This document shows, piece after piece, positions 15,667 to 55,141 of a DNA stretch of 64,000 nucleotides. Below the pieces are notes generated by a model. That model ran no database searches. It saw only the letters and a list, made by a program, of their open reading frames with translations, and was not told the origin of the DNA. The first letter of the stretch is position 1; every line of letters starts with the position of its first letter. Both the position numbers and the translations under genes were made by a program. The stretch is from Patescibacteria group bacterium (lineage in GTDB: Bacteria > Patescibacteriota > Minisyncoccia > Phycocordibacterales > Phycocordibacteraceae): contig JAGXBE010000001.1 of the NCBI GenBank assembly GCA_018971265.1, forward strand, positions 1,051 to 65,050. The letters are read 5' to 3'.

Positions 15667-15739
15667 GGGCCGTTAGCTCAGTTGGTAGAGCACCTCGTTT
15701 GCAACGAGGGGGTCGCAGGTTCGAATCCTGTACGGTCCA
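15667..15739 (+). tRNA. tRNA-Ala (anticodon TGC)
   Basis: Cloverleaf folded by hand. Acceptor GGGCCGT with a G3:U70 pair (Ala identity element), anticodon loop TTTGCAA, T-loop TTCGAAT. Confidence 0.8.
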
Positions 15740-15789
15740 CAGAGCGAGAAAAAGTCGGATTATAGCACCGGCTTTTTCTTGCTTTGTGG

Positions 15790-15824
15790 CGGCGGATGTA
15801 CAGGATTCGAACCGATACGGTCCA
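15790..15824 (+). other. degenerate duplicate of the tRNA-Ala(TGC) 3' end (tRNA fragment)
   Basis: ggatgtacaggattcgaaccgatacggtcca shares TACGGTCCA and TTCGAA with the Ala 3' end located 50 nt upstream. It cannot fold as a T-arm. Confidence 0.4.
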
Positions 15825-15855
15825 TCTATCTTTTTATGTTATCCTGCTACAGTTC

Positions 15856-16042
15856 GCGCTCTTAGCTCAGTTGGTTAGAGCAGTTCGTTCACCCCGTTAG
15901 ATAATTGGGCGGTTAGCTCAGTTGGTTAGAGCGTACGCTTCACACGCGTAAGGTCACAGGTCCGATTCCTGTACCGCCCACCGGGTGTTATCTAACGGGG
16001 CAAGCACGCGAAAGGTCAGGGGTTCGAATCCCTTAGAGCGCA
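15856..16042 (+). ncRNA. Val-like tRNA gene split into 5' and 3' halves by a 135-nt insert that itself contains tRNA-Val(CAC); the halves are bridged by a 13-bp inverted repeat
   Basis: The 5' half gcgctct/ta/gctc-agttggttag-agc...gttcgttcac is complementary at the acceptor to the 3' end agagcgc, with T-arm aggggttcgaatccctt. Between them, ccccgttagataa (15892-15904) and ttatctaacgggg (15988-16000) are perfect reverse complements bracketing the inner tRNA. The outer anticodon stem pairs poorly as written. Confidence 0.35.
15907..15980 (+). tRNA. tRNA-Val (anticodon CAC), nested inside the split Val-like gene
   Basis: Acceptor GGGCGGT/ACCGCCC, D-arm tagctcagttggttagagc, anticodon stem tacgc/gcgta with loop TTCACAC, T-arm acagg-tccgatt-cctgt. 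Confidence 0.8.
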
Positions 16043-16061
16043 CACGGGAGGTGTTCTGTGT

Positions 16062-16133
16062 CGGGCCGGAGTATGCCGGTAGTACGCACGCTTCGGGTGC
16101 GTGTAGACCGGGTTCAATTCCCGGCGGCCCGAC
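16062..16133 (+). tRNA. tRNA-Pro (anticodon CGG)
   Basis: Acceptor CGGGCCG/CGGCCCG with C1:G72, anticodon stem cacgc/gcgtg with loop TTCGGGT, T-arm ccggg-ttcaatt-cccgg. Flanked by 11-bp direct repeats gaggtgttctg at 16048-16058 and 16153-16163. Confidence 0.8.
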
Positions 16134-16305
16134 AAAGAACATCTCTCGAAGAGAGGTGTTCTGGACCGCCAGGAATTGAGGGCCGGAGCGCGACGGCGTG
16201 AGGCGGGGTCGCGCAACACTCACAACGGGCTATAAGCAAAGCTTTCGTCTCCGTTGTTCCGGAGAGAATAATCATAGGAAGACTTGTGTTACTCTTCCTC
16301 CACAA

Positions 16306-16376
16306 CGGGCTATAGTATACCGGTAGTACGCATGCATGGGGTGCATGTAGACCGGGTTCGATTCCCGGTAGCCCGA
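16306..16376 (+). tRNA. tRNA-Pro (anticodon GGG)
   Basis: Acceptor CGGGCTA/TAGCCCG, anticodon stem catgc/gcatg with loop ATGGGGT, T-arm ccggg-ttcgatt-cccgg. Its first 14 nt (cacaacgggctata) are repeated at 16221-16234. Confidence 0.7.
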
Positions 16377-16461
16377 AAGTAGCGAAGCGAGGTAAGGAAT
16401 GGGAACGCGGAACGTTCGCCCGGGAATCGAAGGTCGGAAGGGTGAATTTTATTTTTCCGCG

Positions 16462-16470
16462 TGATAAAAT
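16462..16470 (+). promoter_or_regulatory. extended -10 box TGATAAAAT 9 nt upstream of tRNA-Ala(CGC)
   Basis: TGnTAnnAT motif seen in the sequence. Confidence 0.35.
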
Positions 16471-16479
16471 CGTCCCTAT

Positions 16480-16552
16480 GGGCCATTAGCTCAGTTGGTA
16501 GAGCGCGTCATTCGCATTGACGAGGTCAGGAGTTCGACTCTCCTATGGTCCA
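16480..16552 (+). tRNA. tRNA-Ala (anticodon CGC)
   Basis: Acceptor GGGCCAT/ATGGTCC with G3:U70, anticodon stem cgtca/tgacg with loop TTCGCAT, T-loop TTCGACT. Confidence 0.8.
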
Positions 16553-16561
16553 CCGTGCTTC

Positions 16562-16632
16562 GGGCCTATAGTTCAGCGGTAGAACGCGTCCATGGCATGG
16601 ACGAGGTCGGGGTCCGACTCCCCGTAGGTCCA
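16562..16632 (+). tRNA. tRNA-Ala (anticodon GGC)
   Basis: Acceptor GGGCCTA/TAGGTCC with G3:U70, anticodon stem cgtcc/ggacg with loop ATGGCAT. Confidence 0.75.
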
Positions 16633-16723
16633 CAAAATTAACGAGCCGTAATCGGCGATTATAATTTTGTAGGATATCGAGGTATTCCGAGGCGCCACAA
16701 ACAAAAAGTGTTACTATAATTTC

Positions 16724-27760: not shown

Positions 27761-30598
27761 ATGGCGTATGATCACAAAAAAATCGAGAAAGCAGCCCAAG
27801 AGAAGTGGGCGAACCTCGATCTCTACCGAACCGACCTCTCGGACGGTGCGAAGGACCCATATTACCTCCTTGCCGAGTTCCCGTATCCGTCGGGTGATCT
27901 CCACATCGGACACTGGTATGCATTCGCCGTAACCGACATATACGCGCGTCTTTTGCGACTGCGCGGCAAGAATGTCTTTTTCCCGATAGGATTCGACGCC
28001 TTCGGCTTGCCTGCCGAGAATGCAGCGATAAAGCACGGACTCGATCCTGCCGAGTGGACCTACAAGAATATTGCTCGTATGCGTGCACAACTCGCCTCAA
28101 TGGGAGCGTCTTTTGATTGGTCAAGAGAGGTGCTTACCTGTGACCCGAATTACTACCAATGGACACAGTGGCTTTTCGTGAAGCTCTTCGAGCACAAGCT
28201 CGCCGAACATCGCGAGGCATCGGTAAAGTGGTGCCCAAAGGATCAGACCGTGCTTGCGAATGAACAGGTAGTTGACGGTCACTGTGAGCGCTGCGGGACC
28301 GAAGTGGAAGAAAAGACCCTTACCCAATGGTTTCTCAAGATAACCGACTACGCAGAGCGTTTGCTTGCCGGACTTGACGCGCTTCCGTGGCGCGAGGAAA
28401 TAAAGGAAGCCCAGCGCGCATGGATCGGCAAGAGCGAAGGCGCGTACTTGGAGTTTCTTGTTTCCGGGCGCGATGAAAAGATAAAGGTCTTTACGACACG
28501 GCCGGACACGGTGTTCGGCGCAACCTACGTCGTGCTTGCGCCGGAGCATCCTATTGTTTCATCGTTGCTGCCGTCCGTTTCGAATGTGGAAGAAGTCGAA
28601 AAGTACGTCCGTGCGACCGCGAAGAAGACCGAACGCGAGCGCAGTGAGAATAAAGAAAAGACCGGCGTGAAATTGGAGGACGTTTCCGCGATCAATCCGG
28701 CAACGAAGGAGGAGATACCGGTGTACGTCGCCGACTACGTTCTCGCCTCCTATGGCACTGGCGCGGTGATGGCCGTCCCCGCCCACGACGAGCGCGACTT
28801 CGAATTTGCAAAAAAGATGAAGCTTCCAATCAGGGAAGTAGTAATACCCGAACGCATTGATAAGCGGAATCCGCCGGTGTTTGGCAAAAAAAGTGTGGAA
28901 CGTCGGAATGTGCATGCGTTTGTCAAAAACAAAGATGGAAAAATCCTCTGCCTGAAATGGAAAAAATATCCGTGGACTACGTTCCCGATGGGGGGAATTG
29001 AAGAGGGGGAAGACGCTGTCGCTGCAGGGCGACGCGAAGTCGCGGAGGAGACAGGGTATATTCATCTTACGAATCCAAGAATGCTCGGCGGCGAGGTGCG
29101 AGCTGAATATTTTGCCGCACACAAAGATCAGAATAGAATTTCATACACGACTCTCATCGCTTTCGATTTGGAAGACGAAGCGCGTGAGCCGGTTGCCAAG
29201 GAGGAGGGTGAAGCGCATGACATATTTTGGGCGGACCCGAGCGATGTCACTTCCACGAGCATGACGCATGCTGAAATAGACGTATGGCTCGCTCGACTTT
29301 CGAACGAAAAAGGTTTTGCATACGTCGAGTCTGGCATGTTGATCAATTCCGGTGAATTTACCGGCAAGAACAGCGAAGAAGCGAAGTGGGACATCGTTGC
29401 GTATGTGGGCGGCGAGCGTGCGACGCAGTATCGGCTCCGTGACTGGCTGGTCTCCCGCCAGCGTTACTGGGGCTGTCCGATACCGATTGTCTATGATCCC
29501 TCCGGGAAGCCGCACGCGATTCCGGCCGAACACTTGCCGTGGCTTTTGCCGACCGATGTCGACTTCACGCCGACGGGCAAAGCACCGCTCGCGTCGTCAG
29601 CAGAACTTAAAGAGCGCGTGACGCGCATCTTCGGCGAGGGCTGGACGCCCGAACACGATACGCTCGACACGTTTGTCGACTCTTCGTGGTACTTCCTCCG
29701 CTATCTCGACCCGAAGGATGCGCATGATTTTTCCGATGCCGCGCTTATGAGAAAGTGGCTGCCGGTCAATCGCTATTCGGGCGGAGGCGAACACACGACG
29801 ATGCATCTCTTCTACGCGCGCTTTTTCACCAAAGCGCTCTACGACCTCGCGCTCGTACCGGTCGAGGAGCCTTTTACCGAGCGTTTCAATCGCGGTCTTG
29901 TCATGGGTCCCGACGGGCAGAAGATGAGCAAGTCAAAAGGAAACGTGCTGAATCCCGATGAATTCGTAGAGCGCTATGGCGCCGATGCCGTGCGCATCTA
30001 CCTCGCCTTCATCGGCCCTTACAACGAGCCGGGGAACTATCCGTGGAATCTCGATGGCGTCGTTTCCATGCGCAGGTTTCTTGAACGCGCCGCACGCGTC
30101 CTCGATCGTGCAGAGGAAAGGCCTGAAGAACCCGAGATTCAACAAGCAGTTCGGCGCACGAGCGTGAAAATCGCTGCCGACGGCGACCGGTTTAAATTTA
30201 ATACTTGCATTGCCGCGCTCATGACGTTGCTGAACGAGTTCGAAAAGTCGCCGACGGTCTCGAGGATGGCTGCAAGATCTTTTGTTATCATGCTCGCTCC
30301 TTTCGCGCCGCATGCAGCCGAGTTTTTTTGGGAGCAGCTTGACGAAAAAGAGAGCGTCCACCAGACATCCTGGCCGGCAATCGCCCCCTCCGCCGTAGAG
30401 GAAGTCACGGTCGTGCTACAAGTAAATGGCAAGCGCCGCGGATCCGTACGCTTGTCCCCGACCGCTTCGCAAGAGGATGCGATGAATGCCGCCCTCGCGA
30501 TTCCTGGCATCACCAAAATAGTTTCAGGAGAAAGGCCCGAACGCCTCGTGTACGTGCCGGGGAAGGTCGTTAACCTCGTAATGCGCTCGAAATCTTGA
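27761..30598 (+). CDS. leuS: leucine--tRNA ligase with an inserted NUDIX hydrolase domain
   Basis: HIGH motif (PYPSGDLHIGH), CP1 editing motifs (TRPDT, GTGAVMAVPAHDERDFEFA) and KMSKS. Between the editing domain and the GMLINSGEF segment there is an insertion of about 155 aa carrying a canonical Nudix box, GGIEEGEDAVAAGRREVAEETG. Confidence 0.9.
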   Translation: MAYDHKKIEKAAQEKWANLDLYRTDLSDGAKDPYYLLAEFPYPSGDLHIGHWYAFAVTDIYARLLRLRGKNVFFPIGFDAFGLPAENAAIKHGLDPAEWTYKNIARMRAQLASMGASFDWSREVLTCDPNYYQWTQWLFVKLFEHKLAEHREASVKWCPKDQTVLANEQVVDGHCERCGTEVEEKTLTQWFLKITDYAERLLAGLDALPWREEIKEAQRAWIGKSEGAYLEFLVSGRDEKIKVFTTRPDTVFGATYVVLAPEHPIVSSLLPSVSNVEEVEKYVRATAKKTERERSENKEKTGVKLEDVSAINPATKEEIPVYVADYVLASYGTGAVMAVPAHDERDFEFAKKMKLPIREVVIPERIDKRNPPVFGKKSVERRNVHAFVKNKDGKILCLKWKKYPWTTFPMGGIEEGEDAVAAGRREVAEETGYIHLTNPRMLGGEVRAEYFAAHKDQNRISYTTLIAFDLEDEAREPVAKEEGEAHDIFWADPSDVTSTSMTHAEIDVWLARLSNEKGFAYVESGMLINSGEFTGKNSEEAKWDIVAYVGGERATQYRLRDWLVSRQRYWGCPIPIVYDPSGKPHAIPAEHLPWLLPTDVDFTPTGKAPLASSAELKERVTRIFGEGWTPEHDTLDTFVDSSWYFLRYLDPKDAHDFSDAALMRKWLPVNRYSGGGEHTTMHLFYARFFTKALYDLALVPVEEPFTERFNRGLVMGPDGQKMSKSKGNVLNPDEFVERYGADAVRIYLAFIGPYNEPGNYPWNLDGVVSMRRFLERAARVLDRAEERPEEPEIQQAVRRTSVKIAADGDRFKFNTCIAALMTLLNEFEKSPTVSRMAARSFVIMLAPFAPHAAEFFWEQLDEKESVHQTSWPAIAPSAVEEVTVVLQVNGKRRGSVRLSPTASQEDAMNAALAIPGITKIVSGERPERLVYVPGKVVNLVMRSKS

Positions 30599-55054: not shown

Positions 55055-55141
55055 GCGTCGGTGGCGGAGCGGTCAATCGCAACAGGCTGTAAACCTGTCG
55101 GGCATAGCCCTACGAAGGTTCGAATCCTTCCCGGCGCACCA
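55055..55141 (+). tRNA. tRNA-Tyr (anticodon GTA), class II with a long variable arm, CCA encoded
   Basis: Acceptor gcgtcgg/ccggcgc, anticodon stem acagg/cctgt with loop CTGTAAA, variable arm cgggcatagccctac, T-arm gaagg-ttcgaat-ccttc, then CCA. TATAGT box 7 nt upstream. Confidence 0.8.

What the first reader, a model, noticed from the sequence alone, without database searches (positions are those of the whole stretch)
28850..29330. NUDIX hydrolase domain inserted into leucyl-tRNA synthetase
The insertion lies between the end of the CP1 editing domain (...AHDERDFEFAKKMKLPIREVVIPE) and the GMLINSGEF segment that follows the editing domain in canonical LeuS. About 155 aa are inserted, against about 25 aa at this position in E. 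coli. The insert contains a textbook Nudix box, GGIEEGEDAVAAGRREVAEETG (GX5EX7REUXEEXGU), preceded by beta-strand-like sequence and followed by a helix, consistent with a full Nudix fold. A nucleotide-pyrophosphatase module built into an aminoacyl-tRNA synthetase could hydrolyse mischarged aminoacyl-adenylates or Ap4A, or sense nucleotide pools. I am not aware of a described LeuS with this architecture.
Basis: seen in the sequence. Interest (0 to 1): 0.65.

Follow-up and report, generated by a model that had tools for sequence, protein, structure and literature searches.

The report
Nudix hydrolase nested inside leucyl-tRNA synthetase
A complete, apparently active Nudix nucleotide-pyrophosphatase domain is built into a loop beside the proofreading pocket of this bacterium's leucyl-tRNA synthetase; the same arrangement is conserved in well over a hundred Patescibacteria (CPR) species yet seems never to have been described or tested.

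Summary
leuS (27761-30598, 945 aa) is one uninterrupted frame. Residues 366-516 (nt 28856-29308) form a Nudix domain: PF00293 E=2.4e-14, canonical Nudix box, AF2 pLDDT 90-96, Foldseek hits to Nudix structures only. It replaces a ~10-13-aa loop in close relatives and in T. thermophilus LeuRS. It is not an artefact: the protein is GenBank MBU6490571.1, with near-identical copies in two other MAGs. At least 163 GTDB species encode a relative of the insert, and all 80 loci examined (nearly all Patescibacteria) carry it inside leuS. Catalytic Glu/Arg residues are >=99% conserved, as is a family motif, EYFAxHKDxNR. Related LeuRS carry up to three copies at three or more sites, some with HAD or alpha/beta-hydrolase inserts. 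The same family sits in a ProRS and as standalone genes beside leuS or proS. Orthologues in identical synteny lack it. The substrate is unknown; the nearest solved relatives (RppH, Ap4A/Ap6A hydrolases, 15-24% identity) suggest dinucleoside-polyphosphate or RNA-end hydrolysis. I found no paper describing it. Verdict: new variant of a known kind, interest 0.6.

The parts
27761..30598 (+). leuS, 945-aa bacterial-type leucyl-tRNA synthetase (host gene), identical to GenBank MBU6490571.1
   Evidence: Single ORF; TIGR00396 885 bits; best PDB matches are T. thermophilus and E. coli LeuRS, E=3e-200; Foldseek of the AF2 model matches only LeuRS; exact match in NCBI nr.
27902..27913 (+). HIGH motif (H48-I-G-H51) of the synthetic site
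   Evidence: H48, G50 and H51 invariant in 67 aligned LeuRS.
28415..28855 (+). CP1 editing domain, N-terminal part (aa 219-365), including the T-rich TTRPDT motif (aa 245-250, nt 28493-28510) and the AHDERD motif with the catalytic Asp (aa 341-346, nt 28781-28798)
   Evidence: PF13603 model positions 1-146 at aa 219-367; T245, T246, R247, T250, H342, D343, R345 and D346 invariant; aligned to Tt LeuRS 6-362.
28856..29308 (+). Inserted Nudix domain (aa 366-516, 151 aa) at the I4b loop of CP1
   Evidence: Gap boundaries in insert-less relatives; PF00293 at aa 381-499; AF2 block-mean pLDDT 90-96 in the full-length model and 91.6 / pTM 0.84 alone; Foldseek hits to Nudix structures only.
28991..29059 (+). 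Nudix box GGIEEGEDAVAAGRREVAEETGY (aa 411-433); putative metal-binding and catalytic residues E417, R425, E426, E429, E430
   Evidence: Sequence; these residues are >=99% conserved in 84 inserts from GTDB genomes.
29105..29137 (+). Family-specific motif E449-Y-F-A-A-H-K-D-Q-N-R459 (EYFAxHKDxNR), with Tyr450 17 residues after the box; likely substrate-binding (X-loop) region
   Evidence: >=95% conserved in 84 inserts; K455 invariant and N458 and R459 >=90% conserved across divergent insert types; aligns to no solved Nudix by sequence.
29309..29431 (+). CP1 editing domain, C-terminal part (aa 517-557: GMLINSGEF strand, alpha3 helix, return strand)
   Evidence: Query 520 onward aligns to Tt LeuRS 376 onward; second PF13603 stretch; helix 538-548 in the AF2 model. 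The end point is approximate.
29921..29935 (+). KMSKS loop (aa 721-725), preceded by G-P-D-G-Q in place of the leucine-specific domain
   Evidence: K721, M722, S723 and K724 invariant; query 716->721 aligns to Tt 579->637.

Best explanation
The insert is a genuine, folded and most likely catalytically active Nudix pyrophosphohydrolase domain. It is nested in the I4b loop of the CP1 editing domain of an otherwise complete and presumably functional LeuRS, and the two are made as one polypeptide. It is an old, inherited feature of a large group of Patescibacteria (Paceibacteria/Parcubacteria-type lineages), not a recent fusion. I think the domain most likely hydrolyses nucleotide-pyrophosphate by-products that arise at the synthetase. 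The leading candidates are dinucleoside polyphosphates such as Ap4A, which form when an enzyme-bound aminoacyl-adenylate is attacked by ATP; these would be split back into usable mononucleotides. Being tethered to the synthetase would place the hydrolase where such compounds are made, in organisms with very small genomes and limited nucleotide synthesis. Shown here: domain identity, fold, intact active-site residues, position in CP1, wide conservation, and repeated association with aaRS genes. Inferred: catalytic activity. Guessed, at roughly 1 in 3: the ApnA-type substrate and the by-product-disposal logic.
For: Identity and fold: PF00293 E=2.4e-14; AF2 pLDDT 91.6 and pTM 0.84 with the Nudix strand and helix order; 520 Foldseek PDB hits at E<=1e-3, the 50 listed all Nudix proteins. 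Active site: E417, R425, E426, E429, E430 and G432 are >=99% conserved in 84 inserts from different species, and a second acidic residue outside the box (E482) is also conserved; E482 is invariant across divergent types. Host intact: HIGH, KMSKS, the T-rich motif and the editing Asp are invariant. Position: between the alpha2-equivalent helix 344-353 and the alpha3-equivalent helix 538-548, which is the variable I4b loop that borders the editing pocket (PMC3747510). Selection for the association: at least 163 GTDB species encode a relative, and all 80 loci examined have it inside leuS. About 100 of the 120 nearest LeuRS carry it. Up to three copies sit at three or more sites, and each copy has a 59-76% identical counterpart at the same position in another protein. 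The same family is nested in a class II ProRS. Standalone copies sit 1 nt upstream of leuS and two genes upstream of proS. LeuRS and ProRS share only adenylate chemistry and tRNA binding. Substrate lead: the nearest solved relatives by sequence are lupin Ap4A hydrolase and RppH, and by structure RppH, NUDT15 and Ap6A/Ap4A hydrolases. Tyr450 sits 17 residues after the box; a downstream tyrosine correlates with ApnA hydrolase activity (PMC5389931).
Against: No substrate can be assigned by homology. Similarity to characterised Nudix enzymes is 15-24% identity with TM 0.5-0.7. All NCBIfam equivalog models fall far below their cutoffs, for example RppH at 24 bits against 116. The conserved EYFAxHKDxNR motif aligns to nothing solved. 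To my knowledge LeuRS is a weak Ap4A producer compared with LysRS or PheRS. Orthologues 74-78% identical overall, in identical synteny, lack the insert and have no Nudix neighbour, so the domain is dispensable in cis. Host and insert identities are uncorrelated (r=-0.1), which points to a history more complex than simple co-evolution. One standalone relative sits next to fpg, which hints at a MutT-like sanitising role instead. Some extra copies have E->Q/A and R->A/Q changes in the box. I could not obtain model coordinates, so the geometry relative to the active sites is unmeasured.
Confidence: 0.4

Rival explanations
1. The Nudix domain acts on RNA ends, not free nucleotides. It would work as an RppH/Dcp2-like pyrophosphohydrolase that uses the synthetase as a tRNA-binding platform. 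It could convert 5'-triphosphate or nucleotide-capped (NAD, Np4N) tRNA or RNA to 5'-monophosphate, or remove a 3'-pyrophosphate from the CCA end.
For: The best structural and sequence neighbours include RppH (top Foldseek hit, E=3.8e-8) and Dcp2. Both hosts, LeuRS and ProRS, bind tRNA acceptor ends. The window's site, I4b, borders the editing pocket that receives the tRNA 3' end. Toxins that pyrophosphorylate the tRNA CCA end and block aminoacylation exist (PMC11559606). The patchy presence, many types and fast divergence resemble conflict-related genes.
Against: RppH equivalog models score far below their cutoffs. Similarity is confined to the generic half of the fold. Mature tRNA 5' ends are monophosphates after RNase P (established knowledge). 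No Nudix enzyme is known to repair CCA-3'-pp (none found). Insertion at three or more different sites argues against a precise geometry toward a bound tRNA end.
Confidence: 0.2
2. The Nudix is a general house-cleaning enzyme with no functional link to leucylation, for example a MutT-like sanitiser or an ADP-ribose or NTP pyrophosphatase. It merely resides in a permissive surface loop of a highly expressed essential protein, as a form of gene economy or co-expression in streamlined CPR genomes.
For: The I4b loop is known to be variable and tolerant. Related LeuRS also carry unrelated hydrolase inserts at other loops: HAD and alpha/beta-hydrolase. Insert-less orthologues exist in the same synteny. 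Standalone relatives occur in non-aaRS contexts, next to fpg or another Nudix. Host and insert divergence are decoupled.
Against: The same Nudix family is repeatedly associated with aaRS genes in different ways: three or more sites in LeuRS, one in ProRS, and adjacent standalone genes. That is hard to explain without a functional link. Multi-copy arrangements are retained with positional orthology.
Confidence: 0.25
3. The domain is non-catalytic. It would be a structural cap on the editing pocket, analogous to the eukaryal/archaeal I4ae insertion, or a nucleotide-sensing regulatory module that tunes editing or aminoacylation.
For: I4ae covers the editing pocket opening in eukaryal and archaeal LeuRS. 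Non-enzymatic Nudix domains exist (PMC5389931). Some additional copies in related proteins have degenerate boxes.
Against: In the window's type every catalytic residue of the box is >=99% conserved over 84 species. That is not expected for a purely structural or ligand-sensing module.
Confidence: 0.07
4. The architecture is an assembly, binning or frameshift artefact that fuses a neighbouring nudix gene into leuS.
For: Some database fragments come from low-coverage, frameshifted contigs.
Against: LeuRS sequence continues in the same frame on both sides. Three MAGs carry near-identical 945-aa proteins. Eighty independent genomes have the same nested arrangement. AF2 folds host and insert confidently.
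Confidence: 0.01

Closest known systems
Canonical bacterial LeuRS (T. thermophilus 1H3N/2BYT, E. coli 4AQ7/4ARC) with the variable CP1 peripheral insertion I4b
   Same: Same enzyme family and domain order. HIGH, KMSKS, the T-rich region and the editing Asp are conserved. The insertion point is the known variable I4b loop between CP1 helices alpha2 and alpha3.
   Different: In known LeuRS, I4b is a loop of about 10-25 residues. Here it holds a whole 151-aa enzyme domain. None of the solved LeuRS structures matched carries such an insert. This LeuRS also lacks the leucine-specific domain.
E. coli RppH (NudH) and Nudix Ap4A/Ap6A hydrolases (lupin 1F3Y, Aquifex 3I7U, T. thermophilus Ndx1)
   Same: Nudix fold, full Nudix box, and a tyrosine downstream of the box. 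They are the best sequence and structure matches among solved proteins.
   Different: Only 15-24% identity and TM 0.5-0.7. Family cutoffs are not reached. The conserved EYFAxHKDxNR and N-terminal NPPxxGK motifs are specific to this family. The known enzymes are free-standing, whereas this domain is nested in a synthetase.
Eukaryal/archaeal LeuRS I4ae insertion
   Same: [quoted passage not shown]
   Different: I4ae is a short helical element with no catalytic motif. The element here is an autonomous hydrolase fold.
Other bacterial aaRS with appended or inserted catalytic domains (e.g. NCBIfam NF040702 'isoleucine--tRNA ligase, N-acetyltransferase domain-containing'; ProRS INS and ThrRS N2 editing domains)
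   Same: An extra enzymatic module is carried within a synthetase polypeptide (the NF040702 model appears; the rest is from my own knowledge).
   Different: Those modules are acyltransferases or aminoacyl-tRNA deacylases. I found no described aaRS with a Nudix module.
Functional pairing of aaRS-made Ap4A with a separate Nudix Ap4A hydrolase (e.g. LysRS and NUDT2 in mammals; Plasmodium Ap4A hydrolase, PMC4734340)
   Same: A synthetase makes Ap4A as a side product and a Nudix enzyme degrades it. This is the logic I propose here.
   Different: In known cases the two are separate proteins and the producer is mainly LysRS. Here the hydrolase is physically inside LeuRS or ProRS, and activity is untested.

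Membership tests
Nudix hydrolase superfamily (PF00293) | Profile match above the curated threshold | tested here: met
   53.9 bits in the full protein and 59.5 bits alone, against a gathering score of 21.1.
Nudix hydrolase superfamily (PF00293) | Nudix box GX5EX7REUXEEXGU with the catalytic Glu residues | tested here: met
   GGIEEGEDAVAAGRREVAEETGY at aa 411-433. E417, R425, E426, E429 and E430 are >=99% conserved in 84 inserts.
Nudix hydrolase superfamily (PF00293) | Alpha/beta/alpha sandwich Nudix fold | tested here: met
   AF2 pLDDT 91.6 and pTM 0.84. 520 Foldseek PDB hits at E<=1e-3; the 50 listed are all Nudix proteins. This is a prediction, not an experimental structure.
Nudix hydrolase superfamily (PF00293) | Divalent-cation-dependent hydrolysis of a nucleoside diphosphate linked to X | not testable with these tools
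   Requires an enzyme assay.
Bacterial leucyl-tRNA synthetase (TIGR00396) | Equivalog model above its cutoff; HIGH and KMSKS motifs | tested here: met
   885.5 bits against 548.4. HIGH at 48-51 and KMSKS at 721-725 are invariant.
Bacterial leucyl-tRNA synthetase (TIGR00396) | CP1 editing domain with the T-rich region and catalytic Asp | tested here: met
   PF13603 E=1.9e-61. TTRPDT at 245-250 and AHDERD at 341-346 are invariant.
Bacterial leucyl-tRNA synthetase (TIGR00396) | Leucine-specific domain before KMSKS (present in most bacterial LeuRS but not all) | tested here: not met
   Query 716->721 aligns to Tt 579->637; GPDGQ replaces about 57 aa. Mycoplasma mobile LeuRS likewise has a tetrapeptide and is active (PMC3643597), so this does not exclude membership.
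RppH / RNA pyrophosphohydrolase (NCBIfam PRK00714 equivalogs) | Equivalog model above its cutoff | tested here: not met
   Best score is 24.3 bits against a cutoff of 116. The domain resembles RppH but is not a member.
Nudix ApnA hydrolase subgroup | Specificity tyrosine in the X-loop downstream of the Nudix box (PMC5389931) | tested here: inconclusive
   Tyr450, 17 residues after the box, is 98% conserved. However, sequence alignments to Ap4A hydrolases and RppH stop before this region, so equivalence rests on spacing only.
MutT 8-oxo-dGTPase (TIGR00586 / PRK10776) | Equivalog model above its cutoff | tested here: not met
   12.9 bits against 97.9, and 14.5 against 148.
Intein or other mobile in-frame element | Splice-junction residues (N-terminal Cys/Ser/Thr; C-terminal His-Asn followed by Cys/Ser/Thr), a homing endonuclease, or flanking repeats | tested here: not met
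   The junctions read ...VVIPE|RIDK... and ...FAYVE|SGML.... Only short chance repeats flank the insert. No Pfam hit other than NUDIX falls within the insert.
Anti-phage defence Nudix (PADLOC) | Specific match to a defence-system model | tested here: inconclusive
   Only a weak generic hit, PDC-S07 E=3.8e-6 at 24.6 bits. There is no defence-gene context in the window.

The most novel reading that the evidence does not exclude
The synthetase-embedded Nudix domains are tRNA-end repair or decapping modules. Sitting beside the CP1 pocket that receives the tRNA 3' end, the domain would remove a pyrophosphate placed on the CCA end by toxSAS-type toxins, or a nucleotide cap or triphosphate on the 5' end. 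That would restore chargeable tRNA. It would make LeuRS and ProRS of CPR bacteria self-contained 'repair-and-charge' enzymes. It would also explain the patchy presence, the multiple copies and the rapid diversification as products of an arms race.
Probability: 0.1. Interest if true: 0.85.

Novelty: new variant of a known kind. Interest (0 to 1): 0.6.

Why it matters
Aminoacyl-tRNA synthetases are among the best-studied enzymes, and extra catalytic domains inside them are rare in bacteria. Here a whole radiation of uncultured, small-genome bacteria keeps one to three Nudix hydrolase domains inside LeuRS. Some of these proteins also carry HAD or alpha/beta-hydrolase modules, and the same Nudix family also sits inside ProRS. 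If the domain is coupled to the synthetase, it would be a new kind of built-in handling of nucleotide by-products or of tRNA quality. It would also give a direct handle on the long-debated physiological role of aaRS-made Ap4A. The question is easy to test, because the domain is small, confidently modelled and can be expressed alone. The result also flags an annotation gap: NCBI names the seven Nudix-bearing proteins that carry an NCBI name 'class I tRNA ligase family protein', while their insert-less orthologues are named leucine--tRNA ligase.

Tried and rejected
- **Assembly or frameshift artefact:** rejected.
- **Intein or mobile in-frame element:** no splice-junction residues, no endonuclease and no flanking repeats.
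- **Recent tandem duplication as the source of multi-copy LeuRS:** rejected. Copies within one protein are 25-51% identical, while same-position copies in other proteins are 59-76% identical.
- **Assigning a substrate by homology:** failed. All NCBIfam equivalogs fall below their cutoffs, PDB sequence hits cover only the generic half of the fold, and Foldseek gives many roughly equal Nudix hits.
- **Defence-system or phage origin:** only weak generic Nudix hits in PADLOC and PHROGs.
- **Fission/fusion complement next to insert-less leuS:** not found. There is no Nudix neighbour in two syntenic loci; the rest of those genomes could not be searched.
- **First insert-only homologue search:** the word-indexed search found only 6 fragments and badly understated the distribution. 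The genome scan, the full-length search and the exhaustive profile search corrected this.
- **Technical failures:** the first genome scan with a 6-sequence alignment failed for lack of conserved stretches. The AFDB fold library was unavailable. Model coordinates are not exposed, so I could not measure distances between the Nudix site and the editing or synthetic sites.
- **Rfam and tRNA scans of the window:** nothing related to the finding.
Full report
**The observation.** The window carries one uninterrupted ORF at 27761..30598 (+) encoding 945 aa. It is a bacterial-type LeuRS: TIGR00396 scores 885 bits against a cutoff of 548, and the best solved relatives are T. thermophilus and E. coli LeuRS at E=3e-200 and below. 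Pfam finds PF00293 NUDIX at aa 381-499 (E=2.4e-14, above the gathering score). The LeuRS editing-domain model PF13603 is broken at position 146 of 185. The quoted Nudix box GGIEEGEDAVAAGRREVAEETGY is present at aa 411-433 and is the only such box in the 64-kb window.

**Delimiting the insert.** Against T. thermophilus LeuRS, query 361 pairs with Tt 362 and query 520 with Tt 376. Nine close relatives that lack the insert are 74-78% identical overall to the window LeuS. Five of them show a clean 151-aa gap at aa 366-516, where they have a short loop such as 'SVEGKQIPYTG'. The insert is therefore nt 28856-29308. The finding's coordinates and size are right.

**Location.** In the AF2 model it lies between helix 344-353 (which follows the AHDERD motif) and helix 538-548. 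The S. pneumoniae CP1 structure paper describes the core as beta1-beta2-alpha1-beta3-beta4-beta5-beta6-alpha2-alpha3-beta7. It describes a non-conserved bacterial insertion, I4b, as a long loop between alpha2 and alpha3. I4b residue Thr373 lies about 4 A from a ligand in the editing site, and the eukaryal/archaeal I4ae insertion covers the pocket opening (PMC3747510). The isolated Sp CP1 chain 4k47 aligns to query 227-362 and then stops. By numbering, Thr373 falls about ten residues past that point, in the loop that the Nudix domain replaces. So the Nudix domain occupies the I4b position beside the editing pocket. This equivalence is inferred from numbering and secondary-structure order. I could not superpose coordinates.

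**Not an artefact.** The exact protein is GenBank MBU6490571.1, and two further 945-aa members of its >=90%-identity cluster come from other MAGs. A scan of one genome per GTDB species found 163 species encoding a relative of the insert. The 80 best loci are nearly all Patescibacteria: Kaiser-, Taylor-, Wildermuth-, Yonath-, Yanofsky-, Wolfe- and Moranbacteria and 'Paceibacterota'. In all 80 the domain lies inside a frame with LeuRS motifs, about 940-1300 aa long where the contig is complete. About 100 of the 120 closest LeuRS in a 5.8-billion-protein collection carry PF00293. The short 'CP1+NUDIX' proteins from the first search are fragments of frameshifted leuS genes on low-coverage contigs.

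**Is it a working enzyme?** The insert alone models at pLDDT 91.6 and pTM 0.84 with the Nudix strand and helix order. The 50 listed Foldseek PDB hits are all Nudix proteins. Across 84 inserts from different species, E417, R425, E426, E429, E430, T431 and G432 are >=99% conserved. The family also has its own motifs: EYFAxHKDxNR (449-459, >=95%), NPPxxGK (370-376), R381, W405, W490 and E505. Across much more divergent insert types, G411, G412, E426, E430, K455, E482 and W490 stay invariant. This pattern is what an active pyrophosphohydrolase would show. The host also looks functional, with HIGH, KMSKS, TTRPDT and the editing Asp invariant in 67 sequences.

**What is the substrate?** This cannot be settled here. 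All NCBIfam equivalog models (RppH, MutT, NudI, NudE and others) score far below their cutoffs. PDB sequence hits are lupin Ap4A hydrolase, RppH, Dcp2 and ADPRase at E about 1e-4 to 1e-5, and they cover only the N-terminal half and the box. Structurally RppH is first (E=3.8e-8, TM 0.54-0.60), followed by NUDT15, Ndx1 Ap6A hydrolase, NudI and many others at 15-24% identity. Tyr450 lies 17 residues after the box. A downstream tyrosine correlates with ApnA hydrolase activity (PMC5389931), and by my recollection RppH Tyr77 has the same spacing. This is a lead, not a test.

**A wider pattern.** An exhaustive profile search of 1.84 billion cluster representatives gave 270 hits at E<=1e-10. I mapped the top 148 with the window's LeuRS parts.
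- Most copies sit at the window's site (site A).
- Fifteen copies sit near aa 208-240 (site B).
- Three sit about 95-110 aa into the C-terminal part (site C).
- P0127 and P0128 have two copies at site B plus one at site A. P0132 has two at site A.
- Copies within one protein are only 25-51% identical, but each has a 59-76% identical counterpart at the same position in another protein. These architectures are therefore old and inherited, not recent duplications.
- Some extra copies have altered boxes, with E->Q/A and R->A/Q changes.

Other LeuRS add a HAD hydrolase at site C (P0139) or an alpha/beta-hydrolase at site B (P0044, P0059, P0089). The same Nudix family is nested in a class II ProRS between the anticodon-binding and C-terminal domains (P0230). 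Of five standalone relatives examined, one lies 1 nt upstream of a Nudix-bearing leuS in the window's synteny. One lies two genes upstream of a Nudix-bearing proS. One precedes a class I aaRS fragment on a short contig. One is next to fpg and one is next to another Nudix gene.

**Evolutionary behaviour.** Insert-less orthologues sit in the same synteny (ATP synthase, YchF, DUF5671, leuS, sigma70_r4/HARE-HTH, DUF8128, YceG) with no Nudix neighbour. Over 1653 pairs, host identity averages 73% and insert identity 39%, and the two are uncorrelated (r=-0.1). In one clade of closely related hosts, seven insert types that are <45% identical to each other are intermixed with insert-less proteins, while deeper host clades all carry the window's type. 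This fits an ancestral insertion followed by fast divergence, exchange and repeated loss. The NJ trees are too weak to separate these processes. There are no flanking repeats and no intein features, and GC dips only slightly over the insert.

**Interpretation.** The repeated, independent association of one Nudix family with two unrelated synthetases argues for a functional link to what LeuRS and ProRS share: adenylate chemistry and tRNA ends. The variety of insertion sites argues against a need for exact geometry, which favours a diffusible substrate. I therefore rank the readings as follows:
- Disposal of adenylate-derived dinucleoside polyphosphates (Ap4A-type): about 0.4 as the full statement. 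The substrate guess alone is about 1 in 3.
- An unlinked house-cleaning role in a permissive loop: 0.25.
- RNA or tRNA-end pyrophosphohydrolysis: 0.2.
- A non-catalytic cap or sensor: 0.07.
- Artefact: 0.01.

**Novelty.** Both parts are known families and the sequences are public and auto-annotated, so this is not categorically new. However, five full-text searches found no description of a LeuRS-Nudix, ProRS-Nudix or aaRS-Nudix architecture. The Nudix clan review does not mention synthetases, and none of the solved LeuRS structures matched has such an insert. I class it as a new variant of a known kind and score interest at 0.6. It is robust, widespread, surprising for a textbook enzyme and directly testable, but its function remains unproven.

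Noticed in passing
window 29906-29935 (aa 716-725): This LeuRS lacks the leucine-specific domain. GPDGQ directly precedes KMSKS where T. thermophilus has about 57 residues (Tt 579->637). G716, D718 and G719 are invariant in all 67 aligned relatives. This resembles Mycoplasma mobile LeuRS, which has the tetrapeptide GKDG (PMC3643597).
   Followed up: partly
related proteins P0127, P0128, P0130, P0132, P0137, P0152, P0156: Related LeuRS carry two or three Nudix domains at three or more insertion sites (near aa 208-240, at aa 366, and about aa 612-629 in window numbering). Copies within one protein are 25-51% identical but have 59-76% identical same-position counterparts elsewhere. Second site-B copies and site-C copies often have altered Nudix boxes.
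   Followed up: partly
L083 2906-4837 (P0230) and L084 2762-4693: A class II prolyl-tRNA synthetase (PF00587 + PF03129 + PF09180) carries the same Nudix family between its anticodon-binding and C-terminal domains. In L084 a standalone family member (P0155) lies two genes upstream.
   Followed up: partly
related proteins P0139 (aa 654-808) and P0044/P0059/P0089 (aa ~236-378): Some Nudix-bearing LeuRS also contain a HAD-type hydrolase domain (PF13419) or alpha/beta-hydrolase Pfam hits (PF12695, PF00561, PF06821, PF12146) in other surface loops. Many other LeuRS in this group have unidentified 120-320-aa inserts. CPR LeuRS looks like a hotspot for hydrolase-domain insertions.
   Followed up: partly
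JGI 3300071358 contig carrying P0144 (no DNA held): A 163-aa standalone Nudix of the same family ends 1 nt before the start of a 951-aa Nudix-bearing leuS. The gene order is the same as in the window (YchF, DUF5671, Nudix, leuS, sigma70_r4/HARE-HTH, DUF8128).
   Followed up: no
alignment A4: Host LeuRS identity and insert identity are uncorrelated (r=-0.1). Hosts 76-78% identical to the window's carry inserts only 26-36% identical, while hosts at 67-68% carry inserts 43-50% identical. It is not resolved whether this reflects cassette exchange or accelerated divergence.
   Followed up: partly
annotation column; MBU6490571.1: Where an NCBI name is given, the seven Nudix-bearing LeuRS named by PGAP are all 'class I tRNA ligase family protein' (two older submitter names read 'leucyl-tRNA synthetase' and 'leuS'). 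One triple-domain protein is named 'alpha/beta fold hydrolase'. The insert-less orthologues are named 'leucine--tRNA ligase'. This is a systematic naming gap.
   Followed up: no
window 15667-16633: A cluster of six tRNA genes on the + strand: Ala-TGC, Val-CAC, Pro-CGG, Pro-GGG, Ala-CGC and Ala-GGC. A tRNA-Tyr lies at 55055-55141. No other Rfam family reaches its gathering score in the window.
   Followed up: no
window 28900-29350: GC content dips to 0.49-0.50 over the insert, against 0.54-0.62 in the flanking leuS sequence, and purine skew is high. The dip is mild and was not pursued as evidence of foreign origin.
   Followed up: no
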